Source: Schmidtea polychroa (Eukaryota). Taken from it: DNA of 64,000 bases. Shown here in pieces: positions 1 to 21,663 of this stretch. The stretch is from NCBI GenBank assembly GCA_044892525.1, contig CM097885.1, positions 12,278,001-12,342,000 of the forward strand, given 5' to 3'. How positions within the stretch are numbered: the stretch's first letter is position 1; each line of letters starts with the position of its first letter. The notes beneath the pieces are model-generated. The model saw only the letters and a program-made list of their open reading frames with translations. It made no database searches and was not told the origin of the DNA. Position numbers and translations under genes: made by a program.

Positions 1-3000
1 AGACAGAATAATGATATCAAAGCGTCAATAAGTGAAGGCAATTGAACACGAAGATTGCAACAATCAAGAAGTAGGAGACAAGACGAGAACAATCATGGAA
101 CTGCAGGAAGAGATAAATGCAATACGACAACAATTAAACAATAAAAACACCGGTAAGTTATGTTTTTATCATAGTAAATTTGGGCATAGGGCGATGAAAT
201 GTCAACCGCCATGTGAATGGAATGCAAATCAGAACGACAACTATCAATCGGGGAAGTACAACAGAGAGAAATATCAAAATTTCGAACCGTCAAACATATC
301 CTCAAGGAACAACAACAACAATTTCAACAAAAACAGCAACTTCAACAAAAACGGTAACTTCAACAGCAACAACCACAGAGAGAACCAGGGAAACGAGAGA
401 AGGTTTCATTGAACCCGAACAGTGAAACCTACAAAATCATATCCTCTTTCTCGGGACAAAACAACTCACAAATATTCGAAATACCAGCAATCATAAATGG
501 AGAACAAATTGACTTTCTCATAGATACAGGCGCCATCTCAGCATCCTTCCCGCAAACCGTTTCAAGCCTGATAGAAATGGAGAACATCGATCTTTAGTAT
601 CCGCCAACAATTCATTAATCACATACCACGGGCAGAAAACGATTGAATTTACTATTGAAGGATTCAGAACTAAATTTATATGGTCTTTTGCTATAGCCGG
701 CATATCTCGTTCAATTTTAGGTGCAGACTTCCTGGCCCATCACAAAATCGATGTTAGTTGTCATTCCAGATCAATTTGTTGCCCTAGCAGTAACGAAAGA
801 ACAGAAGCGCGGAGAAGCCAATGTGCCAAGATCTGTGCTACAATCAACAAAGAAACCACATTAACCACGAAACTACAAATTATCACCAATGGTTCCCCTG
901 TAGCTCAAAGACAAAGACCACTTTTTGGAGAAAAATTAGTTGCAACAAAGAAAGAGTTTGACAGACTCTTAAATGAAGGTGTGAGTCGGCCAAACAAGAG
1001 TGACTGGGCATCTCCATTAGTAGTGGTTAAGAAGCCGGATGGGTCATGGCGGCCTTGTGGAGACTACAGAATGTTAAATGAAATAACCCAGCCTGACAGA
1101 TATCCACTTCCAAGAATTCAAGATTTACTGAACAAGATAAACAACCCTCATGTATTCACTAAATTAGATTTGGAAAAGGCATATCATCAAATTCCGATTT
1201 GTGACGGAGACATTTCAAAGACAGCAGTCATAACACCTTTTGGATTGTTCGAATATACGAAGATGCCTTTTGGACTTCGAAACGCATCTCAAACGTTTCA
1301 GAGACAAATGGACAACGTACTCCGAGAACATCAGGAGCATACCTTATCCTATATTGATGATGTTCTGATATTCTCCAAGACTGAAGCAGAGCATAAAGAA
1401 CACGTGGCAAGGGTGATGGCCAGTATTCAAGCCGCTGGTCTCACAATCAACCAGAGCAAATGCGAATTCCAAACCGAAAAGGTAAACTTTTTGGGTTTTG
1501 AATTAACAAAACAAGGAATAAAACCCTCTGAAGAACGCACGTTGGCAATTAGCAATTTAAAGAAGCCAACTAACAGTCAAGATTTACGACGTTTCATTGG
1601 TGGCATCGGCTATTATCACTGGCTAATTCCAAGGCTGTCAGATACACTGAGTCCACTGCATGACTTGTTACAAGAGTCGGTCAATAAAAAGGAAGATCTC
1701 TTATGGCAAGACTGCCATACACACGCTTTATTGAGTGCCAAAAATTCGGTACGTGAAATCAGCAACGTTTCATATCCTAACCCGTCCAAGCCATTACTAT
1801 TATGCACTGACGCATCTTCTAAAGCAATTGGAGCAAGTCTAAGTCAAATCAACGAAGAAAATAAATCATTTCCAATTGCTTTCTTTTCGAGGAAATTAAA
1901 TCTAACCGAACAGAAGTATTCTACCTTTGACAGGGAGTTACTGGCAATATTCTTATCTATAAAACATTTTAAGCATTTCTTAGACGGTTCTCATTTCACA
2001 GTCATGACGGACCACAAACCTTTACTACGAGCTAGACATATGAAAGATCCATCGCCAAGGCAATGGCGAATAATCGAATACCTTGATCAATTTGATTTCA
2101 CCATCGAATTCATCAAAGGGGAAGATAATGTAGTCGCCGATCTCTTGTCCAGACCATGCAGTAATCAAAACCTAATCAAAAAACGTTGGAAATTAATTTC
2201 GTCGAATTCACGAAAGAAAGGTTAAAAGAAGAACAAAGGAAAGATCAGACCTTATCTATGCAAGTCTCCAGTTATGTAGTACTACGGATGACATTCTCAT
2301 TGACAATTCTACGGTGGAAACCAGAGTAATACTGCCAAAAATATTCCGACATCAAGAATTTCTAAGAATTCATAACATATCGCATCCAGCATCCAAACCA
2401 ACGATAGAACTGATCAAGGCGAGATATGTGTGGCCTCAGATGAAAAGCGACATCAGAGAGTGGTGTAGACAATGTCAAAGATGTCAAAGTGCAAAAATAA
2501 CAAGACACACACATGCTCCTTTAGGTACCATAGAAACCAAAGGAAGGTTCATTACAGTCCATCTAGATATAGTGGGTCCTCTTCCGAGTGTCGATAACAA
2601 GAGATATATCATGACAATGATAGACCGAGGAACGTCATGGGTTGAAGCAATTTCTATATATGATGTCACAGCTAATATGATCATAAGAACATTTGAAAGA
2701 GAGTGGATCAGTCGCTTTGGTGTTCCAGAAATTGTCATAACAGATCAAGGAACACAATTTGAATCAGAAAAATTCTCCAATTTCTGCAAGGTAATGGGAA
2801 TCGAAAGGAGGCGAACAACAGCCTATCACCCTCAATCCAATGGGAAGATAGAAAGATGGCACAGAGCCATGAAAAACTCAATAAGAGCCACATCAGAAGA
2901 CTCCTCCAAGATGTGGGCTCATGATCTCCCCAAGATTCTACTCAGTCTAAGAAACTGCACGAAGTCTAATGGGTCTCCATCAGCAGCGCAACTCACATTC

Positions 3001-3503
3001 GGTTGTCGAGCCAGATTACCCGGAGATTTTGTCATTAGTGAACCAACATTAACCGATATAGAAGAGAAGTTGACATCGATTCAAGAGGAAATCGACTCAC
3101 AACTAAGTAACAAACAAACAAGCCAACCAAAAGAACATAGTTTTGTAAGCAAACTATTAGTTCACTGCAAAAGAGTGTGGCTTCGATTTGAATTTAGGAA
3201 ATCGTTAGAAGATCCGTACACGGGACCATACGACGTCATAGAAAGACCCGATGACAATAAAACGGTAAAAATCAAAATCGGAGACCAAGTAAAGAATGTT
3301 AGCATCGACCGTCTCAAGCCATGGATTGGAACGGACGAATTGGCTCCGCAATCTTAAGGGGGAGTTGTGTTGGGACATTAATTAATTATTCAACACAATA
3401 ATTTTAAAACAATATTTAAAAACAATTTAATTTGTTTAAATATTGTGTTTGATATAAAATAAAATTTTTGGAACACCAAACACGTGTAACTATGAGTCTT
3501 ACA
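1..3503 (+). mobile_element. Ty3/Gypsy LTR retrotransposon, CsRn1-like, frameshifted; 5' end outside window
   Basis: Gag CHCC knuckle CFYHSKFGHRAMKCQPPC; protease FLIDTGA; RT YIDD and RNase H (TDAS, DRELLA) at 981-2225; integrase HHCC/DDE/GPY at 2314-3357; PPT aagggggag ~3356-3364; short 3' LTR ~3368-3503 (TGT...ACA). The pol frame is broken in several places. Confidence 0.93.
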
Positions 3504-3666
3504 ATGACATTATATGATTCTGTGACTTATTTGATGATTATTAACTTATTTATTAATTTTGTGTTTATAACAATGTATGTAGCCTATTATGTATTAGATA
3601 AATTCAGTGTCACAACAATGTCAAATGTCTAAAACATAATTTTAAGCACCAATAGGTGTAATGTTG

Positions 3667-3885
<219 letters not shown>

Positions 3886-4691
3886 AGTATGTATTATAAC
3901 AGATCATGAAGATAATGAAATAATTGATATTTTTGTACTAATCAATGTAATATTAAATTAAAATTCTTTAAAAGATGTTTGTGTTTTATTTATATAAGAA
4001 CCATCACGTTGAAATTCGAGTAACATCAACATATTATATACATTTTAATAAATTATATTCGATATTTACCAACATAATTAAATTTGGGACGCCAGATTCC
4101 TGCTTGGCACAGGGCGCAATTATAGCTCACTACGACCCTGTGTAGGACCACATATTTAATAACGGTCCGGCAGCTTTAGTCATTTTCCATTCATATTAAG
4201 TTTATTTCTAACAGATCAATTTAAACAACGCAACTATTTCCAAACAGACCATTGAAACTTTTTTTAAGATGTCATGATATTTGTTTCTCATTTTCTGTTT
4301 TTTTTATTTTCAAACGGTGCCGACTTTCAAAATCCCTATTAATTAATAAATTAGTTAGTTTTATTGATTTCCTGCTATCCTCATCTCATTTTTGATTTTT
4401 TATTCATTATAATTTAAATAATTAAAACTGCTGCTTTTTACTTTTGTTTGTCTTTCCGATTCATTTTAAAATTATTTTGATAACTTTAATTTTTCTTTTT
4501 TAGATATTCCTAACATATTAAATTTTTATATTTTTTTACACACATAATGAAAAATGCACATAAACATTTCAAATGAATTGATTTCCAATTTGAAATCGAG
4601 ATAAATTACTATTTATTAGTTTAAGTGTTTAAATATATTCAATAAGCGATGTTTTGTTGTGGTAATTCTTGTGGACTTTCATTATTTTATT

Positions 4692-5149
4692 ATGAGTGTC
4701 AAGGTTGTTGTGACTTATTGGTAAGATTGATTTCTAATATGGGCATTTTATTAATTTTATTTATTTTAATTATATAGTGGCTCATGAGGTTATGGAAGCA
4801 AGGTAATCGGTTAAACATTGGATAGGTAAATGAATTATATAATTTCTAGTTTCAGAGCTTGAAGAAAGATCTGGAACTTGAATTTCCAAACAAACTAACC
4901 ATTGTAAGTTTTTGTATTTTTCCTTTGGGTTAAATTTATTTTCTTTCCAAGACTTCGACTTCAACTCCGACCAAAACTGGATGGTTTGAAGTAGAAGTAA
5001 ATGGTAAACTGATTCATTCGAAAAAGGTATTACAGTGGATTTTTATTTCATGCTTATGTGTTTTATTTAAGAATGGCGATGAATTTGTTGATAACGACAA
5101 AAAATTACAAAAGATCTTCGATGAGATAGCTAAAGCATTGAAACAATGA
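4692..5149 (+). CDS. SELENOW: Selenoprotein W paralog A, copy 1 (86 aa, Sec13)
   Basis: GT-AG exons 4692-4720, 4778-4802, 4850-4903, 4952-5026, 5072-5149 give MSVKVVVTYCGSUGYGSKFQSLKKDLELEFPNKLTITSTSTPTKTGWFEVEVNGKLIHSKKNGDEFVDNDKKLQKIFDEIAKALKQ. In-frame TGA at 4785-4787 sits in CxxU; Rdx motif TGxFEV present. Confidence 0.95.
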
Positions 5150-5181
5150 ACATTTTTAGTTTTTAAATAGTTTTATTTTGT

Positions 5182-5249
5182 ATTGCCAACTCGATGAAAA
5201 TTGTTGTTAAAAATCATTGATTTGCAGCGATTTGATGTTTTCTGGTAAT
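5182..5249 (+). promoter_or_regulatory. SECIS element (type II, AUGA core) of SelW-A copy 1
   Basis: Helix I attgcca/tggtaat; core ATGA 5194-5197 and TGAT 5233-5236; helix II aattgttgt/gcagcgatt; apical AA plus mini-stem aaatc/gattt. Confidence 0.88.
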
Positions 5250-6157
5250 CAATAGATTTGTTAGGCTTTTACCAAATGTTTTTGGAATATTATTTATTTA
5301 TTATCTTATTCAATTAATTATTTATTCACACTTTGAACTTATCTCTAAATCTGAATGTTTACACTAATGTTACTAGGAAGCCGCCATTTTGAATTTATAT
5401 TCATGTTTTAAATATGATTTTGAGAAATTTATTTAATTATGTTTAGGTTATTAATTTATTAAGATCTTGAAAAATATTAATTTTAAAATTATTAGAAAAT
5501 GAGAGGTGGGCAGCGAGTTGGCGAATAAGGTAATCGCCTTGGGCCCCACACGAGCCCATAGGGAGCCAACGTTTTCAGAAAAACCCCTCTTTGTAATCAA
5601 TATCAGCATTTACTTATTAAACCAAAATAAATATTCAAAAATAGAAATAAGATAATCAAAATATCCATTCTCGACATGACCTTTCCCATCATCTCATTTA
5701 CATCTGACCCGTTTTCAAATTCTAATTCGATGATTTCTTGATTTTGAATTTTCAATAAAGCTTTTTTCAATTATATTGAATTTATCACAGGCTTATCACT
5801 ACGCCAGACTAAGTGCTATTGATAATTGTGTAGAATAAAAAGTGTTATTGAAAGTAGTGGAAAGAGAGATTGTTATATTAAAGTATGTGGTTAATAAAAT
5901 TGTAATTGTGGTGATTTCGAATAAACGTTTTTGTGTTGGACTGTACGATTAATTTAACTTACGACACCAAGGAGTTAGATATTGATAACGACATTCATAA
6001 ATACCCAATAATTATGCAATCTTCAATATCTTTCTGAATATAAAACAAATTATTGATCGATAGTCTAAAAAGTAATGAAGATAAAGGAAATGTCTCTCCG
6101 TGTATAATCAATAACAATAAGAACAATAAAGACAAATTATGAATACTATTTATTGGT

Positions 6158-6224
6158 AGCTAAATAACATCAAATTATTGAAAATCAAAAAAGATTTTTA
6201 TCAATAACCATCACTGAATTAGCT
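6158..6224 (-). promoter_or_regulatory. SECIS element (GUGA core) of SelW-B copy 1
   Basis: Reverse complement of 15583-15649. Confidence 0.85.
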
Positions 6225-6269
6225 CTCAATTCTATAACTAAAACTAAGATTTTAGACCACTACAAATGT

Positions 6270-6725
6270 TTATTTCAAGGCCTCTGTAACGGCATCGTAG
6301 ATTTTCTTCTTCTTTTCATTATTATCAACGAAGCCATCGCCGTTCTACAGATTTTATTTATCCAAAATATTCTATATGAAAATTCCAACCTTTTTTGAAT
6401 GAACAAGAGTTCCATTAACTTCAACCTCGAACCATCCGGTTTGCTTTGGAGTGGCACTCGATGTCTGAAATCGGAAACCAAATGTAAACATTCAATTACT
6501 TAAAAATTACTGACAAAAGTTAATTTCTGAGGAAACTTAAGCTCCAGATCCTTTTTAAAGCTCTGAAACTAAATAAATTTTTTTCAAAAGTGCTGCTAAA
6601 AATAATTATATATTTCTTTACCTTAGACGAGTATCCTCAGGCACCGCTTGATTTGAATAAACAATTAATTGAATTTTAATTAAATTACAAAATTACCAGT
6701 AAACCACATTTATTTTCACAGACAT
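6270..6725 (-). CDS. SELENOW: Selenoprotein W paralog B, copy 1 (85 aa, Sec13)
   Basis: Mirror of 15082-15537. Sec TGA at 6637-6639 (tca on +). Intron-1 acceptor is AAG here and CAG in the other arm. Confidence 0.93.
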
Positions 6726-7848
6726 TTTATAGTAGCAAATATTTTACAATAAGATAACAAAATTTAAACTAGTTTGTTGTTAAATTTATTATATAATTAT
6801 TATTTGAGTTACTGATTGGCTTTTATTTCTATTCATTTAAACAATTAATTCTATAGGTTAAATATAAATTCTCTATTTCGTTTCTCTATTGTTTAAAACA
6901 CACAGAAAATCGTTAAGTTACTTCATTTAAACAAAAATGATGTTTAGTCTGTATAATGTCAGTATTAAATCATTTTTAATATTATATGAAAACATTGGTG
7001 CAATTGTATTATAGTTCAATATAACAAATAATCATTGAATAAAATTTACGGCAAAATATTCAAACTGTTAGAATTATAATTTTAATGTGTTAAAATAATT
7101 GATAGAAACGTGGACCCCAGCTAAACACGAATCTTCAACTATCATGAATTGTTTTGGTGAAATTTGGGGCCCCGTTGTTTTTATTTGCGATACTTCCCAC
7201 CAATATTTTGTTAAATATAAATTTTGTTTAATTGATAATTACATAATTTTTAGATATCTGTTTTAATCGATGATTATGTCAAAGATTTTAATATTTTATA
7301 GGAGTTGTTGATCTCCACGCTTCAAATGAAATACTTGTTTTAATAATGTGATAAAGTCATTGCCAATTTGAAATTATTCTTTAAGGGCGTTATTTTGGAA
7401 TTTATTTTGGAACAAATCAATGCTTCTTGGTGCATAGCAGAACAATTCCTCGCAGACATACACACACGCACGCACACGCATATAGCAACAGCACTGCAAT
7501 TCAATAAAAATGCTGCTTTATTGCTATTGTTAACGATAAATTATTTTAGAATATTTATGATTAAATTTTTCTTTTTGTGTCAAGCTATTTTATTTAACCA
7601 GAAATGATAAAATTAACATTAAATTGATTATAAAAATGGAATAAAATTGTAAATTAAATAATGGAAGACTGAGCATAATCAACAAGAAATTAATTAGGAA
7701 ATTTAGGTTCAAAATGGAGTTCATCGGTTTCAAGATTTTTATGCTAAAGAAATGGACATATTTATATTTGAAACTCATCTTAAATTTGATATTATAAAAC
7801 CACCAGACAATTTACAACTAGACCTAATTGATTTGCAAATAATTTTAA

Positions 7849-8264
7849 CCACTTAATATACCGTATTTTAGCGCATATAACGCGCGCGGTATCTGATTAC
7901 AATAAACAATAAAACCGATGGTAGGGTTACTGTCACATCATAAAAATATTTCCACTGGCAATGCCGCCACGTGTAAAATATAAATCATAAAGCGCGCACC
8001 CACAGATACCGCGCATGGGGGGTGCACGGTTTGTAAAAATGCGTATAACGCGCGCGTTATATGCGCTAAAATACGGTACACATTTATTTTGAATTTTGTG
8101 TCTTTACTGAAATAAACATATAAAAAATAATATAATAAAGAAAGTAATTCAAAAAAATTAAATAATTAAACAATTCAAACAACACGTTATAAACACGCTA
8201 TACGTAAATATCATAAATAAATATAATGTTCGCCCGTCTATGTCACGGCACGTACATTAAGTGG
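7849..8264. mobile_element. Non-autonomous piggyBac-type element
   Basis: TTAA|CCACTTAAT ... ATTAAGTGG|TTAA: terminal inverted repeats with TTAA target duplication. Confidence 0.75.
7861..8076. mobile_element. Tc1/mariner-pogo-type MITE
   Basis: Perfect TIR ccgtattttagcgcatataacgcgcg / cgcgcgttatatgcgctaaaatacgg, flanked by TA. Confidence 0.9.
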
Positions 8265-9217
8265 TTAATGAAAATTATTTAATTGCATTTTATTCAAATC
8301 TACCAGAAAACAAATTTCCCAATTTAAGAAATATCAATGATTTGTATCTTTTCAAGAAACTATTTATGCGAACAAACATTTTCAAGAATGAATTACATAA
8401 AATCGCAATATAGAACGAGGTTGACGGATGAAAATTTACAACACTCGTTAAGGATCTCAGTATCCCAAACAGAACCGGACTTAAATGAATTAACAGAAAA
8501 TATTCAAGAACAAAAAGCACATTAAATTTTAATAAATGAATAAACTGAAAAATTTGTTATTTTCATATTTTCCCTATACATATGTAATTAAAATTTTATT
8601 TTTTTCCTTTTTGAGAGTTGAAAAATTTTTGTTCTCTGACATTATTGTTATTATAGCATGTTAAAAATAATATATTTTTTCTATTTATTTTTAATAATAT
8701 TTATACTCGTTTATGGTATGAAAGCGCTATTTAAGATACATTTGAATGTGCGACCCACCTAAAAGATTTATTTTGAAAATTGCCTGTCTTCCGAAAAAGT
8801 TTGCCGACCCCTGATCTAGAAAATTACACTTAATTATTTCCTCGGGAATCCTAAATCAATATTTGAGGGTTTTCTGATTCTTTTAATTTGTTTACCCTTG
8901 AATAGGGCTCAAAATATTCCCTCTTTTATCTTATTATCACGTTTCCTTCAGCGCTCGGGCTTTCCATTACCGATTAATTAATTTTAATTAATTTGTCTTT
9001 TCGAATTAACTTTCCCTGTGAACACCTTATTAAATTTTCATTATAATTTCTGAACTCATCTATCAATTTGGCGTTTAATTGATAATTACATAATTTTTAG
9101 ATATATGTTTTAATCGATGATTATGTCAAAGATTTAAATATTTTATAGGAGTTGTTGATCTCTATGCTTCAAATGAAAAACTTGTTCTAATAATGTGATA
9201 AAGTCAGTTGATGGTTG

Positions 9218-9422
9218 TGTCACCGCTAGATCACATTCCCCCGTGTAAATTTAAAAAAAAAATTCAAGGTCAAATTTTAAACAAAGACCATGACTCATCA
9301 AGGTCATTTCAAGGTCGTGTGTCTCATCGCGATGACTCATCAAGGTCATATTATTATTTTTCAAAATATTATTATTTTATTATTATTTTTCAAAAATATT
9401 ATTAATTGATCCAGCGGTGACA
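9218..9422. mobile_element. Small MITE-like element
   Basis: Inverted repeat tgtcaccgctagatca / tgatccagcggtgaca; internal caaggtc repeats. Confidence 0.6.
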
Positions 9423-9963
9423 TACTATTAAAAAATATAAGATAAATGAGAATTTTTCATAAAAATTATAAAAATAAACCTCCTTTCATTTTGAAGTAAT
9501 AAAATATCAAATTAATTAAATAAAAACGAAACTTGTTATTAAATTTTATAGAATATTTCCTACAAAGAAACGTAGCCTGGACGGTTGTGAGAGACCATTT
9601 GGGTTTCCTAGAATATACTTCTTTATACATAGATCCTAATCTCAACGACTCTTTGATCCCTTCATAAATAAACGACGTACTGATAAATCTGTCAGATAAT
9701 ATCCCAATTAATCACCTATAAATTTATTATTATTACCGAAAAATTTCCTAATTAATTTCTTGTTGATTATGCTCAGTCTTCCATTATTTTAATTTTAATT
9801 TTATTCCATTTTTTATAATCAATTTAAAGTTAATTTTATCATTTCTGGTTAAATAAAATAGCTTGACACAAAAAGAAAATTGTTATCATAAATATTCTAA
9901 AATAATTTATCGTTAACAATAGCAATAAAGCAGCATTTTTATTGAATTGCAGTGCTGTTGCTA

Positions 9964-10872
9964 CACCAAACACCACTGAGATACGTTCTCTATAGTGGTG
10001 GTTGGCGTGTAAAATCACTCACCGATTTATTTATCATCATCATCAGCAAATCAAGCAACAATTTATCATGTACTGAATTATGTTTTTTTAATCAATGTTT
10101 TTAAAATCAATTATGTTTTTTGGAAATTTATTTTAGCAATTTTACAAATGGCTTACAAGTAATTTTTTTTATTTAAAGTAAATTTTAAGATTTGAATTTT
10201 GATCCATATGGATATGAGATCATTATTCAAGTTCTTAAATATTACTTTTAATCAACATTATAAATTATTTTTAATTAATTTTCAGGCTTTTTTAGGAATT
10301 TTATGTCTTTTATTAAAGTATTTTGGAATTATTTCGAAAAAATGTGAGTCCGATATATTTTTAATTATAATTAATTAATTAAATAAATCAATCAATGTAT
10401 TTTTTTAAAACATTTTGGGAAAAATCGCTGATTAGAATAATTTTTTTAATTTTTGTAGTTTTTTCTCTGAGCTCAATATGAGGGGATTCTTAAAGGAAAT
10501 CAAATCTGGAGTAAAAATATTTTGAACCAAATTCATCTGCTCTTGATATTTTCATTAAAAATATAATTTAAAAAATTTTCAACGATCTTTTTTTTCTAAA
10601 AATTGTCTAAAATAGAATTATTATAGAAACGTATCTCATCGTTACAATTTTACGAATCAAAAGTTTGTATGTATTTTTTATTATGTGTTGTGCTTGTGTG
10701 CATTTTTTAATTTTCCTTCCACTTTTCAGATTTCTATAATATAAGATGTATCTCATTGAGCTATAAATGAGAACATCAACGTGAAATCAAAGTAAGTATG
10801 TATGTTTCTATAATGTAAGATTATTGATTTTTTTGTTATATTATAGGAAATGCATCTCAGTGGTGTTTGGTG
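9964..10872. mobile_element. TA-flanked TIR element (Tc1/mariner-type MITE)
   Basis: TA|CACCAAACACCACTGAGAT ... ATCTCAGTGGTGTTTGGTG|TA. The empty site is visible in the paralogous sequence near 14322. A related 3' end lies at ~53200-53483. Confidence 0.88.
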
Positions 10873-11184
10873 TATTTGCGTGTGTGTATGTCTGCGAGGA
10901 ATTGTTTTGCACCGAGAAGCCTTGATTTGTGTGTGCATCTGAATCAGTGCTGGTGCTATTGGAATCAATTGAAGCATCCATAGATCATCACTGCCGTACG
11001 GACGAGGCTTTAACATTGACATTTAATTTGAAAATTATTAAATAATATAATTGTGACTTATTATTATTATTATTATTATTATTGAGATTGACAACGACTA
11101 TCTTATAGTCGAAAATTTTTTCATTAAATACATTATTTGCAGCAAAAGGCTTAAATTATCATTTTATTGTTTTATTATTATTAT

Positions 11185-13535
11185 TGTTAGCCGCAACAAC
11201 GTCGAATTCATGTTCAATTTCCATAATTAATAAAATAACCAAATAAAATTACTAAATTAATTTTATTCACAAAACTGCGCTTTTTTGTAATATTCAAACA
11301 ATTTGTTCGAGGCTTTTTTATTATTGTAATTTTGATGCTGATTTCAATGCTGGTTTAATTTATTTTAATATTTAATATATTTTTATATTTTAAACTTACT
11401 TTAATTTATTAATTTAAATGTTTATATAAAAATTTATGTAATCTGATAAATACAATTTAAATGTTTATTAGTAATTCTCAGTTTTAACTTAAACGTGAAT
11501 TCTACCCTTTCATCTCTCTTCTTTAAATTCTTTAATCTTTTCAATATTCCTGATTTAAGACTTCCCACTTTTATCTCTCAGCATATAACTATGATCGTGT
11601 ATTCGTTTTGTTACCGTGTACGGTCCTTCATATCTATCTTGATCCGTGTTTCGTTTTTCTCGTTTGATTAACACTTTGTCTCCAATATCCAACCTCCTTG
11701 CAGTTGTTGTTTCCTCATTTCGTCTTTTACTTTCAATTTTCAATTGGATATCATTCCTGTTGATTCTACTATCATTATACCATTTCGATCTATCAATTTT
11801 CCTACCAAAAATAATTTCAGCTGGGCTTACTCCCGTTGTTTTTTCGATTGTTGCGTTGAGTGTATATTCTATATCTGGGATAAGGTCTGCCCAGTCTTTT
11901 TTTTCCGTCTTTCAGTGATGCATTAATAAAATCTCTTATTGTCCGGAATTGTCTTTCGATTATACCATTCGTATTATGATGATATGGGCTCGAATAGACT
12001 ATCTCGAACCCTGCATTTTTACTTATATTCTTTATGCTATTAGCTTCGAATGTTTTCCCGCAATCTACATGTAGTTCTTTGGGTGCCCCAAATTTTAGAA
12101 TCCAGTTGTTTAACAATATCTTCCCAATTGTCTTTTCATCCTGTTTATTTATAGCTGTTAACGAGATGTATTTGGTGTAATGGTCGATTATTGCGCAAAT
12201 ATATCTTTTCCTGTAAATTTTTCTTTCATTGAGCGACATATGTCCATATATATTTTCTCGAAGGGTTCGGATGCTTCATGTACTTTTGGTTTCTCTTTCA
12301 TCTTTGTAGTTACAACTTTAACTTTTGGGCACGATTCGCAATTTGATATTGTCGTTTTCACTTCCTTTATTAGATCTCTCATATCAAAATTGTTTTGTAT
12401 GTATTTGATAACTTTGTCAACTCCAGCATGGCACAGTAACATATGTGTTTTGTTAATCATTTCTCTTCTTTTGCTCTCTGGTATCCATATTCTTTTATCT
12501 TTGGTATAAATAATATTATCCTCTATTATAAACCTTCCACTTGTTTGCGTTCTTATTTTATTTTTAATCTCCTCTATTTCATCACTATTCATTTGCCATT
12601 CCTCTCCTTTGCCTTCAGTCATTATATTTAACAATCTGGTTTTCATTCTTCCCATTTTAGGATTATCGTGTTCCATAAGGCATTGTACACATGTGCCACA
12701 CGTTTTCCTCGATAACATGTCTGCGTTAGTATGTAGTGTACCCTTTCTAAATTCCTTGTGTATATCAAGGCTACTTAAATAGTTTATCCAGGTCTGGAAT
12801 TGAGCTGTAATTGGTTTCTTCGTGGTTAGCATAAATTTTATTGCTTTATGATCTGTACGTAGTGCAAATCTTTTTCCATATAAATAGTGATTGAAATGCC
12901 GACAAAAATAATATATAGCCAGAAGTTACTTTCTTGTAATACAATAGCCTCTTTCGTGGTCATTCATCGCATGTGAGCCATATGCGATAACTTGCTCATA
13001 TCCCATGTCATTCTTCTGTGATAAGACTGCGCCGATTATATCGAAACTTGCATCCGTATCCAGTATGAATTCTTTCTTAAAATCAGGAAATACGATAATC
13101 GGTGCGGTTATTAATGCCAACTTCATATTCTCAAAAGCCTGCTCACAATTTTTATTCCATATTATTTTGTCGCTATTTTTACCACATATACTCTCTAAAG
13201 CTCTTGCCTTCTTTGCGTATTCTTTAATAAATTTTCGATAATAGTTGCAAATACCCAAGAAACTCCTTAAATTTTTCACACATTTCGGCCTTTAAAATAA
13301 TTGAATAGCTTCAATTTTGCTCTGATCCGTTTGGATGCCGTCTCTATTTATAATATGGCCTAAGAATTTCACTTCGCTTTTCAGTATTTGACATTTTTCA
13401 GGATTAATTCTTAGTTTAGCTTCTGCGATTTTCTGCAATACTCTTTCCAGCAGTTTATAGTGTTCTTCCATTGTGTTAGTAAAAATTAATATATCGTCCA
13501 GATAAACCATTACCCCCTCTTTCCATAAATCCTTT
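11185..13535 (-). mobile_element. 5'-truncated Ty3/Gypsy element (RT-RNaseH-INT plus 3' LTR)
   Basis: RT YLDD; RNase H DTDAS; integrase (H..C..C, IIDHYTKY, PYHHNTNG, EGPY), all frameshifted; PPT gaagagaga next to LTR 11185-11512 (TG...CA). Confidence 0.92.
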
Positions 13536-13789
13536 AATCCTTTAAATCCAGCATGACCTCTAATATGCAACTCAACAAATCGCTCGAACATTAGTTGACC
13601 TATATAGATGCCCTTGCCCATTAATGCAAACAAAACTCGTTTTTGTTACCATAGCTCGATTCTCAACCGCCACAAATCCTATTCAAAAACGTGATGTGAC
13701 GAAACTGCACGGAGTCCTTAGTTCCAAGGTGTCAACAGAAGACACAAACTCGATTGTAAAGATGAAAATTCAGATACTTTTCATAGAAA

Positions 13790-14110
13790 TTACTTTATTT
13801 TTAATTAATTTTATTTTATTTTCAACATAGTCTTTTTTTAGATCGATACATTTTGTCCAACGATTTTCCAATTATTTTAACCAGCCCAAAAAAACGCTTT
13901 TCTCCGAATCTGAAAAATAATTCTCTGTTTCGGTTATGACCTCTTAATCTATGTATAATCATTATGTATAATCATTTTCTCATGATATCAACATGTTAGG
14001 CATCACTTACTAAGAGGTTTTCATCATTAAAAAAATTGGCTTTGCCATTTTGTCCACATTCGGGTCCACTTATAAATGTGAGTAAATATTTTCACAAAAG
14101 AAATTTATTT
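13790..14110 (-). mobile_element. Mariner transposase remnant
   Basis: Minus strand gives EVITETENYF and LENRWTKCIDLKKDYVE, typical of the mariner C-terminus. Confidence 0.7.
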
Positions 14111-15081
14111 TAAGCAAAAACAGAAGCATTTTGATCCTAAATTTTCGAATTAATTTACAATTTTATTCCATTTTTATAATCAATTTAATGTTAATTTTAT
14201 CATTTCTGGTTAAATAAAATAGCTTGACACAAAAAGAAAAATTTAATCATAAATATTCTAAAATAATTTATCGTTAACAATAGCAATAAAGCAGCATTTT
14301 TATTGAATTGCAGTGCTGTTGCTATATGCGTGTGCGTGCGTGTGTGTATGTCTGCGAGGAATTGTTCTGCTATGCACCAAGAAGCATTGATTTGTTCCAA
14401 AATAAATTCCAAAATAACGCCCTTAAAGAATAATTTCAAATTGGCAATGACTTTATCACATTATTAAAACAAGTATTTCATTTGAAGCGTGGAGATCAAC
14501 AACTCCTATAAAATATTAAAATCTTTGACATAATCATCGATTAAAACAGATATCTAAAAATTATGTAATTATCAATTAAACAAAATTTATATTTAACAAA
14601 ATATTGGTGGGAAGTATCGCAAATAAAAACAACGGGGCCCCAAATTTCACCAAAACAATTCATGATAGTTGAAGATTCGTGTTTAGCTGGGGTCCACGTT
14701 TCTATCAATTATTTTAACACATTAAAATTATAATTCTAACAGTTTGAATATTTTGCCGTAAATTTTATTCAATGATTATTTGTTATATTGAACTATAATA
14801 CAATTGCACCAATGTTTTCATATAATATTAAAAATGATTTAATACTGACATTATACAGACTAAACATCATTTTTGTTTAAATGAAGTAACTTAACGATTT
14901 TCTGTGTGTTTTAAACAATAGAGAAACGAAATAGAGAATTTATATTTAACCTATAGAATTAATTGTTTAAATGAATAGAAATAAAAGCCAATCAGTAACT
15001 CATATAATAATTATATAATAAATTTAACAGCAAACTAGTTTAAATTTTGTTATCTTATTGTAAAATATTTGCTACTATAAA

Positions 15082-15537
15082 ATGTCTGTGAAAATAAATG
15101 TGGTTTACTGGTAATTTTGTAATTTAATTAAAATTCAATTAATTGTTTATTCAAATCCAGCGGTGCCTGAGGATACTCGTCTAAGGTAAAGAAATATATA
15201 ATTATTTTTAGCAGCACTTTTGAAAAAAATTTATTTAGTTTCAGAGCTTTAAAAAGGATCTGGAGCTTAAGTTTCCTCAGAAATTAACTTTTGTCAGTAA
15301 TTTTTAAGTAATTGAATGTTTACATTTGGTTTCCGATTTCAGACATCGAGTGCCACTCCAAAGCAAACCGGATGGTTCGAGGTTGAAGTTAATGGAACTC
15401 TTGTTCATTCAAAAAAGGTTGGAATTTTCATATAGAATATTTTGGATAAATAAAATCTGTAGAACGGCGATGGCTTCGTTGATAATAATGAAAAGAAGAA
15501 GAAAATCTACGATGCCGTTACAGAGGCCTTGAAATAA
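15082..15537 (+). CDS. SELENOW: Selenoprotein W paralog B, copy 2 (85 aa, Sec13)
   Basis: Exons 15082-15110, 15161-15185, 15239-15292, 15343-15417, 15463-15537 give MSVKINVVYCGAUGYSSKFQSFKKDLELKFPQKLTFTSSATPKQTGWFEVEVNGTLVHSKKNGDGFVDNNEKKKKIYDAVTEALK. TGA at 15168-15170. Confidence 0.95.
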
Positions 15538-15582
15538 ACATTTGTAGTGGTCTAAAATCTTAGTTTTAGTTATAGAATTGAG

Positions 15583-15649
15583 AGCTAATTCAGTGATGGT
15601 TATTGATAAAAATCTTTTTTGATTTTCAATAATTTGATGTTATTTAGCT
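15583..15649 (+). promoter_or_regulatory. SECIS element (type II, GUGA core) of SelW-B copy 2
   Basis: Helix I agctaa/ttagct; core GTGA 15593-15596 and TGAT 15635-15638; helix II ggttattga/tcaataatt; apical AA plus aaatc/gattt mini-stem. Confidence 0.85.
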
Positions 15650-16556
15650 ACCAATAAATAGTATTCATAATTTGTCTTTATTGTTCTTATTGTTATTGAT
15701 TATACACGGAGAGACATTTCCTTTATCTTCATTACTTTTTAGACTATCGATCAATAATTTGTTTTATATTCAGAAAGATATTGAAGATTGCATAATTATT
15801 GGGTATTTATGAATGTCGTTATCAATATCTAACTCCTTGGTGTCGTAAGTTAAATTAATCGTACAGTCCAACACAAAAACGTTTATTCGAAATCACCACA
15901 ATTACAATTTTATTAACCACATACTTTAATATAACAATCTCTCTTTCCACTACTTTCAATAACACTTTTTATTCTACACAATTATCAATAGCACTTAGTC
16001 TGGCGTAGTGATAAGCCTGTGATAAATTCAATATAATTGAAAAAAGCTTTATTGAAAATTCAAAATCAAGAAATCATCGAATTAGAATTTGAAAACGGGT
16101 CAGATGTAAATGAGATGATGGGAAAGGTCATGTCGAGAATGGATATTTTGATTATCTTATTTCTATTTTTGAATATTTATTTTGGTTTAATAAGCAATGC
16201 TGATATTGATTACAAAGAGGGGTTTTTCTGAAAACGTTGGCTCCCTATGGGCTCGTGTGGGGCCCAAGGCGATTACCTTATTCGCCAACTCGCTGCCCAC
16301 CTCTCATTTTCTAATAATTTTAAAATTAATATTTTTCAAGATCTTAATAAATTAATAACCTAAACATAATTAAATAAATTTCTCAAAATCATATTTAAAA
16401 CATGAATATAAATTCAAAATGGCGGCTTCCTAGTAACATTAGTGTAAACATTCAGATTTAGAGATAAGTTCAAAGTGTGAATAAATAATTAATTGAATAA
16501 GATAATAAATAAATAATATTCCAAAAACATTTGGTAAAAGCCTAACAAATCTATTG

Positions 16557-16624
16557 ATTACCAGAAAACATCAAATCGCTGCAAATCAATGATTTTTAAC
16601 AACAATTTTCATCGAGTTGGCAAT
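16557..16624 (-). promoter_or_regulatory. SECIS element (AUGA core) of SelW-A copy 2
   Basis: Reverse complement of 5182-5249. Confidence 0.88.
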
Positions 16625-16656
16625 ACAAAATAAAACTATTTAAAAACTAAAAATGT

Positions 16657-17114
16657 TCATTGTTTCAATGCTTTAGCTATCTCATCGAAGATCTTTTGTA
16701 ATTTTTTGTCGTTATCAACAAATTCATCGCCATTCTTAAATAAAACACATAAGCATGAAATAAAAATCCACTGTAATACCTTTTTCGAATGAATCAGTTT
16801 ACCATTTACTTCTACTTCAAACCATCCAGTTTTGGTCGGAGTTGAAGTCGAAGTCTTGGAAAGAAAATAAATTTAACCCAAAGGAAAAATACAAAAACTT
16901 ACAATGGTTAGTTTGTTTGGAAATTCAAGTTCCAGATCTTTCTTCAAGCTCTGAAACTAGAAATTATATAATTCATTTACCTATCCAATGTTTAACCGAT
17001 TACCTTGCTTCCATAACCTCATGAGCCACTATATAATTAAAATAAATAAAATTAATAAAATGCCCATATTAGAAATCAATCTTACCAATAAGTCACAACA
17101 ACCTTGACACTCAT
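16657..17114 (-). CDS. SELENOW: Selenoprotein W paralog A, copy 2 (86 aa, Sec13)
   Basis: Mirror of 4692-5149; Sec TGA at 17019-17021. Confidence 0.94.
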
Positions 17115-18422
17115 AATAAAATAATGAAAGTCCACAAGAATTACCACAACAAAACATCGCTTATTGAATATATTTAAACACTTAAACTAATAAATAGTAA
17201 TTTATCTCGATTTCAAATTGGAAATCAATTCATTTGAAATGTTTATGTGCATTTTTCATTATGTGTGTAAAAAAATATAAAAATTTAATATGTTAGGAAT
17301 ATCTAAAATAGAAAAATTAAAGTTATCAAAATAATTTTAAAATGAATCGGAAAGACAAACAAAAGTAAAAAGCAGCAGTTTTAATTATTTAAATTATAAT
17401 GAATAAAAAATCAAAAATGAGATGAGGATAGCAGGAAATCAATAAAACTAACTAATTTATTAATTAATAGGGATTTTGAAAGTCGGCACCGTTTGAAAAT
17501 AAAAAAAACAGAAAATGAGAAACAAATATCATGACATCTTAAAAAAAGTTTCAATGATCTGTTTGGAAATAGTTGCGTTGTTTAAATTGATCTGTTAGAA
17601 ATAAACTTAATATGAATGGAAAATGACTAAAGCTGCCGGACCGTTATTAAATATGTGATCCTACACAGGGTCGTAGTGAGCTATAATTGCGCCCTGTGCC
17701 AAGCAGGAATCTGGCGTCCCAAATTTAATTATGTTGGTAAATATCGAATATAATTTATTAAAATGTATATAATATGTTGAGGTTACTCGAATTTCAACGT
17801 GATGGTTCTTATATAAATAAAACACAAACAACTTTTAAAGAATTTTAATTTAACACACTGTTGACCGGCAATTTTGGGTTTTGGCATGAAAACACGAGTT
17901 AACGCGTGATCGGTCAATAATATGCTAATATAACACTGATTAGTTCCAAAAAATATCAATTACCTTGTACATTTAGTTATATAATATTTAGGAGCTGAGA
18001 TGTATATGTGTATAGCTAAATGCAGTTTCCTGAGGTCGGATATGTTTTATAAGTATTCTCAAAATTATGTTGTAATATCAATTGCTGAATTTATAACTCT
18101 TCAGAGTATATATAATTTTATGGGTGGTTTGACCGAGGAAAACGTTGGTTTGTATTTTTCCTTCATTAACAACTTTCTATTTTTAAAAGTACAGTCAACA
18201 GTTACTATTTTTAGTATCCTCGAGATTTCCAACATCTCTGACGTTAGAAGTGTAATCTCATGTTGTAGAGTACTCGTTATAATCGTTTTATTATATAATT
18301 GTTCTTAATTATCTTCATAATCTGTTATAATGCATTCTACTTCCTCAACATACTTTTTGTTTAAATCAGTGGGTATAATTTAATGTAATTCCCATATTCA
18401 TAACCCTTAGTATTTATTATCA

Positions 18423-18525
<103 letters not shown>

Positions 18526-18950
18526 TCAACATTACACTTATTGGTACTTAAAAATATGTTTTAGACATTTAACATTGTTGTGACACTGAGTGTATCTAAT
18601 ACATAATAGGCTACATACATTGTTATAAACACAAAATTAATAAACAAGTTAATAATCATCAAATAAGTCACAGAATGGTCATTGAAATGAATCATATAAT
18701 ATCATAAAGTATCATTATTAGAATATTATCTCTGTAGTTCATGATTATTCTTGTACATTTATTTTTGGTTTAAGAAATATATTCATTTTTAATTTCTTAC
18801 ATTTAGGCTAAAATTATTTTGAGTTCAAAAAAAATAAAACAGTACAAATCATTAAAATGTTTTATAGTTGTACAGACATTACTACTTCTATATTTTGGTA
18901 GAGCGCTACTCAGCTTAACTAGCTACTGTTCATATTGTTGTGAGAATAAG

Positions 18951-19142
18951 TTAGGGTTAGAGTTAGGGTTAGGGTTAGGGTTAGGGTTAGGGTTAGGGTT
19001 AGGGTTAGGGTTAGGGTTAGGGTTAGGGTTAGGGTTAGGGTTAGGGTTAGGGTTAGGGTTAGGGTTAGGGTTAGGGTTAGGGTTAGGGTTAGGGTTAGGG
19101 TTAGGGTTAGGGTTAGGGTTAGGGTTAGGGTTAGGGTTAGGG
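18951..19142 (+). repeat. Interstitial telomeric array (TTAGGG)32
   Basis: 192 bp, 32 units, one TTAGAG variant. Confidence 0.98.
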
Positions 19143-21082
19143 TACATCGTATTCATTTAGCCACACCGTATTCAATTGAAACAATTAATAAGCTTGCAAA
19201 CATAGATTGTTGCATACCTTAACTGATATTTTCAATGTTTCATTACAATCTCAATATTCAAACAAATATTAATTATGATATAAAACTATTTTTAAATTTA
19301 AAATCAAACAATTATTTTAAATCTTATAACTTATTAAATTTTTGTAGAAATTAGAAAAATTTATTCCATCTTGAAATTTGCCTTCATCATGCCCCCCATC
19401 ATGCTTTATGTCCTGCGCCATGAACCAGGGGCTCATTCCCTTTATCCAGCACGGGCCCTACAGCAAAATTCCATAAGAAAATAATTAAATTAGTCAAATA
19501 ATCAGATATATCTAACCCATAACAGTATGCGAGTTCTTTTCTATGTGCAGGACGTAGTCTAGAATTCCTTTCTTAAAAATATAAATATCTTCAAATTTGT
19601 ATAACACACTTGTGATTAATAAAAATCTCTAAATAAAGAATTCCCTCCAGTACAGTTGCCATACTGCTTACAACAAAGACCTATTAAGTCATCTCTTTGA
19701 CATTTTTATGAGATGTCATTAATGATTGAAAATTAATATTAAAGATGTGAAAATTGACACGTGAATTAAGAGAAGTGAAACTGTTAAGTTAAAGTTTGGA
19801 CAACCGAGTCCACTGTGTACAGATATCTAAACCAGAAATATTAAATAGTGTTTATGGAAAATTGTTATGCAAATTTGTAATTGTTTAATCAGTTTGTGTA
19901 GCTGTAATCAATAAAACTGAGAATAACTTGTAATTGTGCTAATCAATAAATTTTAATTATTTAGGGTTCATTGTTATTGTTATAAATAGATTTTCAATTT
20001 CCCTTAATAAACAAGAATATTTTATATCATTAGACTGACTATATAAGATGATATATAAATTTCATTAAAAATTTTAATTTAATATTTAATTATATATATT
20101 TGTTATTATGTATTTGTATGTTATTCGACTCGTAATATATTGTTCTATAAGGTGACATCAAGATAATGTCAAAAAATAGATTTCGAATTTTTTCCTTTTA
20201 CATGCAACTAAAGCTAAAATCAAAATAATTTTATGTTGGTAAATTTGGCTTTAAATTCTTTACAATGTGATATTAAATTCATTGATATTGTCTAATCAAT
20301 ATTTTTAAGCTGTTCTGTTGCGTAAAAATTATAGTTAGGAAAGATAAAAAGGATAGTCTTGACTGACCTAGAAGTTGCGCGGGTGCATGACGCACAATGA
20401 GTTTGAGGTACTGTAATAAATTACACAAAAAAATTAACTTCCCGCGCATCTAAATTAAGTTAAATTAGAAATACAAATGTTAGGCAAAACTGAATTTAGC
20501 CCCACATACCAATACCATGATCGGTATGCGTCGGAAAATACAGCACTAAGTAAAGTTAAAATATAAACACATAAGACATCAAGTAAACTTACACAACACC
20601 GAAATGATAAAACACAGAAATAAAATGAAACAGGTGTTGGGGCTTAAGGGGTGTGTCATTTGAATGTTCTAGGGTTGCATATGGATTCGGTATCGACTCT
20701 TCCCTAAACGCCTTCATGATTATTTTACTTTTTACCATCTATGCACCCACGGCAACGACCATTTTGGTAATGTACACAGTGCCTGAAAATCAATGAACAG
20801 GTGAGCTCTACTACTAAAACTACTGGGCATTACATTACATAAATCAACCCGTGCCTTCTCTTTCGCCTCTTCACAATGCCTACTCCTCTAGAAAAAAATC
20901 ATATTAACATATAATTATTAACGACAACATTATCATTTTTAGGTTGTGTCTGAAAACATTGTTAAATTTTGAAGAAATGAATAATGAAAAAAACAAAAAA
21001 TAAAAATGAAATCAGACGTTAAAATTTATTAACTTAAAATTACTTTAAACAAAAAAGAGCTTACCACAAATGCATAAAATTC

Positions 21083-21663
21083 TGGTCTAAGACAAAAGGC
21101 CAACAGAGATAAAGGCCGACAAAGTAATTTTATATCTCTTCTACGATGCCATTTGTCACCTAATACTTAACAATGAACTTTGAACAATTATTTTATACTC
21201 ATGTATACTTTGAATTACTTATAAAAGTTGATGTTTGATTTCGTTATTTATTGGATAGACATATTATGGTATAGGTAGATAGGATAAATAAACAATTAAA
21301 ATAACATCATTTATTTAAAGAAAAAGATGCAGAAAAATATTTCTACAATAAAAGTCTAAAAACTTAAATTATACGTTATTCCCCGTAAAAATTATAACGT
21401 TGTTGTATTATGTCGGTCCTTTTCAATAGTTGCCAATCTTTGGTTCTTCTCTACATATTGTTTTTTGCGTTAAGGGTGTGTCTGCCCCAGAATTATGAAT
21501 TCCATTTCACCTGCAGCGCGGAATTGTTCGTGTCTTAGCTGCTTAATTATGTAGTATATTCCAGGATGATTTTTTTGTTTACTTTTGTTCATGTCGGCTT
21601 TTTGTCCACGTCGGCCTTGTGTTTGTTGGCCTTTTGTTTCTGTCGACCTTTTGTCCACATCCC
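21083..21663. mobile_element. MULE-like non-autonomous element
   Basis: Subterminal gacaaaagg repeats inverted at the two ends; 9-bp flanking duplication ataaaattc (21074-21082, 21664-21672). Confidence 0.7.

What the first reader, a model, noticed from the sequence alone, without database searches (positions are those of the whole stretch)
3953..17853. 14 kb gene-bearing palindrome with near-identical 3.7 kb arms
Seen: 3953-7657 is the reverse complement of 14150-17853 around a 6.5 kb TE-filled spacer. I noticed about nine differences (e.g. near 3984, 4026, 4147, 4249, 4496, 5611 indel, 6649, 6778, 6804), none in SelW coding exons. The A/B pair is itself an older tail-to-tail inverted duplication, so inversion-duplication has happened twice here. 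Inference: resembles ampliconic palindromes; the spacer may flip by arm-to-arm recombination.
Basis: partly seen in the sequence, partly recalled or inferred. Interest (0 to 1): 0.8.

Follow-up and report, generated by a model that had tools for sequence, protein, structure and literature searches.

The report
Four-gene selenoprotein W palindrome
A 3.7-kb stretch with two intact selenoprotein W genes sits here twice, as 99.7%-identical mirror images 6.5 kb apart, in an AT-rich animal genome (likely a planarian); worn mirror matches beyond both ends suggest an older duplication whose arms are likely kept alike by gene conversion, a known process.

Summary
Observation confirmed: 3953-7657 mirrors 14150-17853 at 99.73% (9 substitutions, 1 indel, all non-coding). 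Each arm holds a tail-to-tail pair of intact SelW genes (in-frame UGA, SECIS-shaped element; A vs B 59/84 aa identical), four genes in all. In contigs of four public runs (two studies), arm depth is 1.7-3.3 times that of unique spacer or flank. That argues against a fold-back chimera, but no absolute single-copy control was obtained, so a haplotype misjoin is not excluded. New here: both ends of the near-identical core sit at indels (72 bp outside, 36 bp inside), with collinear mirror homology of only 86-95% beyond them. The best reading (0.6) is an older inverted duplication whose gene-plus-promoter core is homogenised by arm-to-arm gene conversion, as at the C. elegans hsp-16 locus. Rivals: young duplication (0.17), false duplication (0.12). 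Spacer flipping is untested, and the arms are too short for the primate amplicon definition (>8 kb). This scan noted similar gene-bearing palindromes elsewhere in this genome. New member of a known kind; modest interest.

The parts
3953..7657 (.). Left arm, near-identical core
14150..17853 (.). Right arm, reverse complement of the left core (99.73%)
7658..14149 (.). Spacer, 6492 bp, single copy as a whole, TE-rich
4692..5149 (+). SelW-A, left copy: exons 4692-4720, 4778-4802, 4850-4903, 4952-5026, 5072-5149; UGA at codon 13 in a CGSU motif
   Evidence: Pfam Rdx above cut-off on exon 4
5185..5246 (+). SECIS-shaped element of SelW-A left
   Evidence: Rfam SECIS_1 full length, 24.4 bits, below gathering 35; fold z -2.5
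6270..6725 (-). SelW-B, left copy; UGA at codon 13 in a CGAU motif; intron-1 acceptor ends AAG
6159..6223 (-). SECIS-shaped element of SelW-B left
   Evidence: Rfam SECIS_1 full length, 27.8 bits, below gathering 35
15082..15537 (+). SelW-B, right copy: exons 15082-15110, 15161-15185, 15239-15292, 15343-15417, 15463-15537; coding sequence identical to left copy; intron-1 acceptor ends CAG
   Evidence: Pfam Rdx above cut-off on exon 4
15584..15648 (+). SECIS-shaped element of SelW-B right (mirror of 6159-6223)
16657..17114 (-). SelW-A, right copy; coding sequence identical to left copy
16560..16621 (-). SECIS-shaped element of SelW-A right (mirror of 5185-5246)
3921..3955 (.). Diverged outer mirror block 1, matches 17962-17926 at 86%
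   Evidence: 0 of 1164 control windows score as high
17854..17925 (.). 72 bp present only on the right side, at the outer end of the core
3885..3919 (.). Diverged outer mirror block 2, matches 18339-18305 at 89%
   Evidence: 0 of 1164 control windows score as high
3517..3666 (.). Diverged outer mirror block 3, matches 18676-18527 at 95%; on both sides an AAT microsatellite lies between it and the arm
7658..7693 (.). 36 bp present on the left and missing on the right, between two copies of a short repeated word, at the inner end of the core
7694..7716 (.). Diverged inner mirror block, matches 14149-14127 at 20 of 23
   Evidence: 0 of 2536 control windows score as high
9741..10930 (-). Third, older inverted copy of the arm's inner end (7704-7483 at 96%, 7470-7412 at 86%), split by an inserted element
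9962..10874 (.). About 0.9-kb element with 33-bp terminal inverted repeats, inserted at a TA in the third copy
7859..8078 (.). 220-bp MITE-like element with 34-bp terminal inverted repeats
9061..9206 (+). Direct 93% copy of arm segment 7216-7359 in the spacer
11555..13645 (-). Broken Gypsy-type pol fragment (RT, RNase H, integrase)
18950..19143 (+). Interstitial telomere-type array, about 32 TTAGGG units, 245 bp beyond the last mirror match; relation to the palindrome unknown

Best explanation
The two 3.7-kb arms are 99.7%-identical mirror copies of a SelW gene pair, and they are likely the core of an older inverted duplication that is kept alike by arm-to-arm gene conversion. Shown: four intact SelW genes; near-identity stops at an indel at each end; beyond both ends the mirror homology continues in collinear order at 86-95%. 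Inferred history: (1) SelW duplicated long ago into the tail-to-tail A/B pair; (2) a segment reaching at least from 3504 to 7716 was copied in inverted orientation; (3) indels and TE insertions accumulated at the margins and in the spacer, and blocked pairing there; (4) the part free of large indels, the two genes plus 0.7-0.9 kb upstream of each, still pairs within the chromatid and is overwritten during repair, by repeated short tracts or a few long ones. Selection against large indels in genes and promoters would explain where the core ends; a benefit from doubled SelW dose is possible but untested. Crossover in the paired arms would flip the spacer (untested).
For: Identity contrast: 9 substitutions in 3704 core columns against 7/150, 4/35 and 3/35 in the outer blocks and 3/23 in the inner block (Fisher P about 1e-12 for the outer blocks). 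The three short blocks beat 0 of 1164, 0 of 1164 and 0 of 2536 control windows. Both core ends coincide with indels (72 bp, 36 bp), and PMC3924837 (passage) says conversion lasts until pairing is disrupted by substitutions, TEs or large indels. Differences crowd at the outer end: 4 of 9 events within 296 bp (P=0.0075 for either end, chosen after seeing the data); the three longest clean tracts are longer than random (P=0.016). Core ends lie 739 and 932 bp upstream of the start codons. Reality of two copies: per-contig depth of arm against unique pieces has median ratios 2.88 (X1), 3.32 (X2), 1.97 (X4), 1.65 (X5); five contig ends in the runs (3976, 7675, 9075, 9741, 17801) fall exactly where the window's own 31-mer copy number changes; the right outer junction is bridged in 4 of 4 runs (table 8). 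Run X5, of a second study, differs from the window's arm at 42 of 2646 bases (1.6%), about six times the arm-to-arm difference. No gap in the window.
Against: No absolute single-copy depth, no long reads and no orthologous locus were available, so neither the two-copy state per haploid genome nor the age of the structure is proven. The tool warns that contig depth is no copy number; X1, X2 and X4 are one study and may be the source of the assembly; only 31 records of about 67,000 pieces were shown. The test that X5's own differences sit in both arms was inconclusive: 1 of 3 contigs is deeper than a one-arm model predicts (82 vs 68.7), 2 of 3 are not (75.3 vs 77.8; 73.8 vs 79.0); one X5 arm contig (17313-17498) is at single depth with 9 differences. 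A scan for the tightest 4 differences anywhere is not significant (P=0.12). The outer blocks may belong to a low-copy repeat (summed depth at 17955-18410 exceeds the main contig in all 4 runs). X1 and X2 ratios near 3 do not fit a fixed 2:1 state. No inner homology was found beyond 7716/14127.
Confidence: 0.6

Rival explanations
1. A real but young inverted duplication, perhaps on only some chromosomes, made by template switching between short pre-existing inverted repeats; 0.27% divergence simply reflects its age and no ongoing conversion is needed.
For: Ratios near 3:1 in X1 and X2 fit individuals with one duplicated and one single-arm chromosome. Arm divergence is below the window-to-X5 difference. 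PMC3907307 (passages) reports inverted duplications that start in pre-existing inverted repeats and leave single-copy spacers of 0.8-70 kb. Related low-copy sequence exists for the right flank.
Against: It needs diverged mirror blocks to pre-exist in collinear order at both ends, each set off from the core by an indel rather than running into it. A junction inside diverged repeats should show 5-14% difference just inside the core; 3953-4250 shows 4 in about 300. X5 also shows arms deeper than flank and both letters at 15003.
Confidence: 0.17
2. Assembly false duplication: two haplotypes of a single-copy SelW pair, alike over the genes and diverged in the flanks, were joined in inverted orientation; the nine differences are alleles.
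For: A 2:1 ratio also results if flanks and spacer halves are haplotype-specific; no absolute control was obtained. Diverged homologous flanks are also what divergent alleles look like. Persistent heterozygosity is documented in planarians (PMC11410931, passages). Earlier notes list many palindromes in this assembly (58 notes fit the words), which could partly reflect an assembly habit.
Against: It needs two gap-free misjoins hidden in repeats; the window has no N. All four unique spacer pieces and the right flank would have to be hemizygous at once in X4 (44-50 against 89-93). X5, of another study and 1.6% different, would have to be heterozygous in the same way. No allelic continuation joins the two inner flanks, and nothing left of 3504 mirrors 18706-23085 convincingly (two short AT-rich hits).
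Confidence: 0.12
3. Scar of a chromosome break that folded back, was healed by telomere addition just beyond the right arm, and was later rejoined.
For: About 32 TTAGGG units, G-rich strand pointing outwards, begin 245 bp past the last mirror match, and this is the only tandem array of the kind in the window. Inverted duplication, single-copy spacer and telomere junction are the pattern in PMC3907307 (passages).
Against: The array is 98% pure while the adjacent mirror blocks are 5-14% diverged, so the ages do not match. Host genes continue beyond it (nucleotide-sugar transporter, radial spoke 3, DRC2, tektin). The array does not abut the mirror block. This concerns origin only and is compatible with later conversion.
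Confidence: 0.07
4. Fold-back chimera from whole-genome amplification or library preparation (PMC6218980, passages).
For: Such chimeras give inverted repeats in long-read assemblies.
Against: Arms differ at 10 places, both letters occur in public runs at two of them (15003, 17781), the right outer junction is bridged in 4 of 4 runs, and arms are deeper than flanks. A chimera would not create diverged mirror blocks.
Confidence: 0.02
5. A giant foldback transposon whose terminal repeats captured the SelW pair.
For: Long inverted arms around a TE-rich middle.
Against: The bases outside 3953 and 17853 show no target-site duplication, homology fades on past the ends, arm depth is only 2-3 units, and the arms are intron-containing host genes.
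Confidence: 0.02

Closest known systems
C. elegans hsp-16 locus and other nematode inverted gene pairs (Zhao et al. 2007, PMC1803023; parts 1-2 of 4 of the text read)
   Same: A two-gene unit with its intergenic DNA mirrored into a four-gene palindrome, arms near 100% identical in coding and non-coding DNA; conversion proposed; repeats end where insertions disrupt them.
   Different: There the age is shown by orthologous structures in C. remanei and C. briggsae; here only by internal diverged margins. Spacer 414 bp there, 6.5 kb and TE-filled here. Inner genes converge there and diverge here. Genes are selenoproteins here.
Primate X and Y ampliconic palindromes (Jackson et al. 2021, PMC8327919; passages read)
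   Same: Arm identity above 99%, single-copy spacer, rearrangement concentrated at the centre, conversion as the proposed keeper, spacer inversion expected from intrachromatid crossover.
   Different: Arms 3.7 kb against >8 kb; no sex chromosome or testis-gene link shown; conversion and inversion were shown there by species comparison and are untested here.
Fold-back inverted duplications with disomic spacer (Hermetz et al. 2014, PMC3907307; passages read)
   Same: Inverted duplication around a single-copy spacer of a few kb; a telomere-type array lies distal.
   Different: Those are new, large, deleterious human rearrangements with terminal deletions; here genes continue beyond, the duplication is small and has diverged margins.
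SelW/Rdx family (Pfam PF10262); six SelW genes in Schmidtea mediterranea (Jiang et al. 2013, PMC3828610; passages and section 12 read, supplements not available)
   Same: CxxU motif with in-frame UGA, Rdx domain, 3' SECIS; SelW expansion in a free-living flatworm is on record.
   Different: The passages read give no genomic arrangement for the S. mediterranea genes; orthology of A and B to SelW1_a-c is untested.

Membership tests
Primate-type ampliconic palindrome (PMC8327919) | Arm-to-arm identity above 99% | tested here: met
   99.73%
Primate-type ampliconic palindrome (PMC8327919) | Arms longer than 8 kb | tested here: not met
   3.7 kb; threshold
Primate-type ampliconic palindrome (PMC8327919) | Sex-chromosome location and testis-biased genes | not testable with these tools
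   No genome held; genes are SelW
Primate-type ampliconic palindrome (PMC8327919) | Spacer inversion between individuals or species | not testable with these tools
   Needs reads longer than an arm; no piece spans the stretch
Conversion-maintained inverted gene pairs (hsp-16 type, PMC1803023) | A gene pair with intergenic DNA mirrored as one unit | tested here: met
   A+ B- spacer B+ A-, all intact
Conversion-maintained inverted gene pairs (hsp-16 type, PMC1803023) | Near-identity in non-coding as well as coding DNA | tested here: met
   10 differences in 3705 columns, 3186 of them non-coding
Conversion-maintained inverted gene pairs (hsp-16 type, PMC1803023) | Structure older than the arm identity implies | tested here: inconclusive
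   Diverged mirror blocks at both ends and 1.6% difference to run X5 support it; no orthologous locus found; X5 both-arm test 1 of 3
SelW/Rdx selenoproteins (PF10262) | Rdx domain | tested here: met
   Exon 4 of A 24.0 bits and of B 23.8 bits, cut-off 22.6
SelW/Rdx selenoproteins (PF10262) | N-terminal CxxU with in-frame UGA in an otherwise open frame | tested here: met
   UGA at codon 13 is the only internal stop in 4 of 4 genes
SelW/Rdx selenoproteins (PF10262) | SECIS element in the 3' UTR | tested here: inconclusive
   Full-length SECIS_1 matches at the right place and strand with core and apical adenines, but 24.4 and 27.8 bits, below gathering 35; folds z -2.5 and -2.7
SelW/Rdx selenoproteins (PF10262) | Expression and Sec insertion | not tested
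   No RNA run was laid
Fold-back inverted duplication with terminal healing (PMC3907307) | Single-copy spacer of 0.8-70 kb | tested here: met
   6.5 kb; unique pieces at about half arm depth in X4
Fold-back inverted duplication with terminal healing (PMC3907307) | Telomere or translocation junction at the distal end of the inverted copy | tested here: inconclusive
   Array 245 bp past the last mirror match, genes continue beyond
Foldback transposon | Target-site duplication at the outer arm ends | tested here: not met
   Outer junction prints

The most novel reading that the evidence does not exclude
The locus is the germ-line scar of a break that folded back and was healed by telomere repeats, then rejoined, and it has since been domesticated as a conversion-maintained four-gene selenoprotein amplicon that still varies in copy number and spacer orientation; with the other gene-bearing palindromes noted in this genome, small autosomal palindromes would be a routine way for this lineage to raise gene dose.
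Probability: 0.1. Interest if true: 0.55.

Novelty: new member of a known kind. Interest (0 to 1): 0.3.

Why it matters
If right, it is a compact example of concerted evolution in which the converted core is bounded by indels on both sides and covers just two genes and their upstream DNA, so tract limits, conversion rate and spacer flipping could be measured with ordinary long reads. It adds selenoprotein genes to the list of palindrome-borne gene pairs, and it warns that short-read or purged assemblies would count two SelW genes here where there may be four. The process itself is well known, so the general gain is modest. Searches for a printed description (planarian/palindrome, SelW/duplication/flatworm, SelW/palindrome/inverted/planarian; listings seen) showed none for this locus; the library lacks most subscription journals.

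Tried and rejected
No whole genome is held for the window, so other copies and the neighbouring windows could not be searched. No absolute single-copy depth control was obtained, which leaves the haplotype question open. No RNA holder listed as such; no RNA run was laid. Among the rows shown for X5 there is no contig for the unique spacer pieces seen in X1, X2 and X4; a part without cover proves nothing. Rows table 8 left out of the depth ratios: TE contigs (X1 11902-12137; X2 8441-8737 and 11396-11606; X5 12681-12861), three-copy segments (X4 9741-9963; X5 14171-14370), the mixed arm-plus-flank contig of X4 (74.4 observed, 78.5 predicted) and the single-depth X5 arm contig 17313-17498. Letters on Logan contigs cannot phase the arm differences, so X4 and X5 carrying left-arm letters next to the right flank was not taken as evidence of conversion or flipping. 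Absence of coding differences rejected as evidence of selection (P=0.22). One search used exon limits one base off; corrected. Rfam at gathering threshold: 0 matches in the window. No tRNA. Metagenome scan gave 1 distant SelW locus (L001, 47% identity, 45% GC, no self-palindrome): uninformative. Protein searches found no close relative (SelW best full-length 60% among 47 compared; DRC2 exon best 66%; one search named only fish proteins), so the lineage is not fixed by my tests. No look-alike stretch among the scan's other windows. The bacterial promoter scan is irrelevant to an animal. Supplements of PMC3828610, which may give the positions of the S. mediterranea SelW genes, could not be seen.


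Full report
Observation. Self-BLAST of the window aligns 14150-17853 to 7657-3953 on the opposite strand over 3705 columns at 99.73%, with 9 mismatches and 1 gap. A global alignment places them at left-arm 3975, 4025, 4148, 4249, 4497, 5612, 6649, 6777 and 6804, with a one-base indel near 5609. The window has no N and is about 28% GC, with AAT microsatellites and one TTAGGG array. Neighbouring genes hit nucleotide-sugar transporter, radial spoke 3, sperm-tail C-terminal (DRC2) and tektin families; a DRC2 exon has best identities of 66% or less, to animals of many phyla. So the host is an animal. 'Planarian' comes from earlier scan notes and from my recollection of planarian base composition and intron size; I did not prove it.

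Genes. Each arm holds two five-exon genes, A and B, tail to tail with 1120 bp between their stop codons. Exon lengths are 29/25/54/75/78 for A and 29/25/54/75/75 for B, all introns are GT-AG of 45-57 nt, and the only internal stop in 4 of 4 genes is UGA at codon 13, in CGSU (A) or CGAU (B). Exon 4 of each passes the Pfam Rdx cut-off. Each gene has a full-length SECIS_1 match just after its stop, below Rfam's gathering score (24.4 and 27.8 against 35 bits), folding at z -2.5 and -2.7. Coding sequences of the mirror copies are identical. A and B share 59 of 84 residues, with pS 0.80 and dN 0.21, and are closer to each other than to any of 47 database homologues compared over the full length (best 60%), so the A/B split is old but likely lineage-specific. 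The lack of coding differences between arms is expected by chance (P=0.22). One difference (6649/15158) changes the intron-1 acceptor of B from CAG to AAG ahead of the 25-nt Sec exon; gene A uses AAG at 2 of its 4 acceptors, so it is probably tolerated.

Is it real? One search listed 19 runs, 15 holding some part; I laid 4 (X1, X2, X4 of study P1; X5 of study P2) on 3890-18410. All are contigs, the tool says depth is no copy number, and only 31 records were shown. Per-contig depths, arm against unique spacer or flank: X1 507-631 (4 contigs) against 138-220 (3); X2 87-99 (3) against 14-37 (3); X4 89-93 (2) against 44-50 (4); X5 74-82 (3) against 45.6 (1). Median ratios are 2.88, 3.32, 1.97 and 1.65 (dropped rows are listed under Tried and rejected). 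Contig ends at 3976, 7675, 9075, 9741 and 17801 coincide with changes of 31-mer copy number computed from the window. The right outer junction is bridged in 4 of 4 runs. Both letters occur at 15003 in X5 and at 17781 in X4, and the window's right-arm letter stands at partial depth in X1 at both sites (table 3). This argues against an amplification chimera (PMC6218980, passages). It does not exclude a haplotype misjoin in which spacer and flanks are hemizygous, because no absolute single-copy control was obtained. That case needs two gap-free misjoins and the same heterozygosity in a second study; I give it 0.12. Ratios near 3 in X1 and X2 may be noise or copy-number polymorphism.

What the ends show. 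Near-identity stops sharply, but homology does not. Outside, 3921-3955 matches 17962-17926 (86%), 3885-3919 matches 18339-18305 (89%) and 3517-3666 matches 18676-18527 (95%), in collinear mirror order, with an AAT tract at the same relative place on both sides. The two short blocks beat all 1164 control windows. The right side has 72 extra bases exactly at the core's outer end. Inside, the right arm lacks 36 bases lying between two copies of a short word, and then 14149-14127 matches 7694-7716 at 20 of 23, above all 2536 control windows. A third, inverted copy of the inner end (9741-10930; 96% and 86%) sits in the spacer, split by a 0.9-kb element with terminal inverted repeats. Four of nine difference events lie within 296 bp of the outer end (P=0.0075, post hoc), the three longest clean tracts are long (P=0.016), but a position-free clustering test is not significant (P=0.12). 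The core ends 739 and 932 bp upstream of the start codons.

Mechanism. The simplest account of diverged, collinear mirror blocks behind an indel at each end is an older inverted duplication whose central part has been overwritten since. PMC3924837 (one passage) states that conversion continues until pairing is disrupted by substitutions, TEs or large indels. Inferred order: A/B duplication; inverted duplication of at least 3504-7716; decay of margins and growth of the spacer by TEs and a partial re-copy of the inner end; continued intrachromatid pairing and conversion of the indel-free gene-plus-promoter core. X5 differs from the window's arm at 42 of 2646 bases (1.6%) against 0.27% between arms, as concerted evolution predicts if X5 has two arms; but the test that these differences sit in both arms succeeded for 1 of 3 contigs only, and one X5 arm contig is at single depth. 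A young duplication primed by pre-existing repeats remains possible (0.17), as the outer blocks have low-copy relatives. A crossover in paired arms would invert the spacer (PMC8327919, passages); nothing here tests it. The TTAGGG array 245 bp beyond the last mirror match fits a healed fold-back end (PMC3907307, passages), but its 98% purity does not match the age of the margins.

Comparison and verdict. The closest case is the C. elegans hsp-16 locus, a two-gene unit mirrored into a four-gene palindrome with 100% arm identity and shown to be old by species comparison (PMC1803023, parts 1-2 of 4 read). The structure works like primate ampliconic palindromes but fails their size criterion (arms >8 kb). 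SelW expansion to six genes is on record for Schmidtea mediterranea (PMC3828610, passages and section 12; supplements not available). PMC11410931 (passages) was used only for persistent heterozygosity in planarians. Earlier scan notes describe two gene-bearing palindromes read as gene-converted, a fold-back duplication and a four-copy Sec-tRNA cluster elsewhere in this genome; they are unchecked and count as leads only. Verdict: real at about 0.85, a new member of a known kind, interest 0.3.

Noticed in passing
window 18950-19143: About 32 near-perfect TTAGGG units inside the sequence, the only tandem array of this kind in the window, 245 bp beyond the last mirror match of the palindrome.
   Followed up: partly
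window 6649 / 15158: Arm difference at the -3 position of the splice acceptor ahead of the 25-nt Sec-codon exon of SelW-B (AAG left, CAG right).
   Followed up: partly
window 1-3500: Gypsy-type element (RT, RNase H, integrase hits; polypurine tract near 3355) whose 3' end abuts the outermost left mirror block.
   Followed up: partly
window 22140-26690: Nucleotide-sugar transporter gene (PF04142 on the last exon) whose introns appear to be filled with long, degenerate ATT microsatellites of up to about 0.9 kb each.
   Followed up: no
window 28140-28680: Stretch that looks, from recall, like a decayed large-subunit rRNA fragment; Rfam at gathering threshold gave no match.
   Followed up: no
window 29560-57400: Three motile-cilium genes on the minus strand within about 28 kb: radial spoke protein 3, DRC2/CCDC65 and a tektin, each interrupted by transposon pieces.
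   Followed up: no
window 10341-11512 and 52596-53484: Two spacer repeats recur together near 52.6-53.5 kb (80-93% identity) in the opposite order.
   Followed up: no
window 16444-16452, run X5: X5 contig 29 carries about 26 extra letters with 9 window bases laid twice, like a small insertion with a target duplication in the A-B intergenic region.
   Followed up: no
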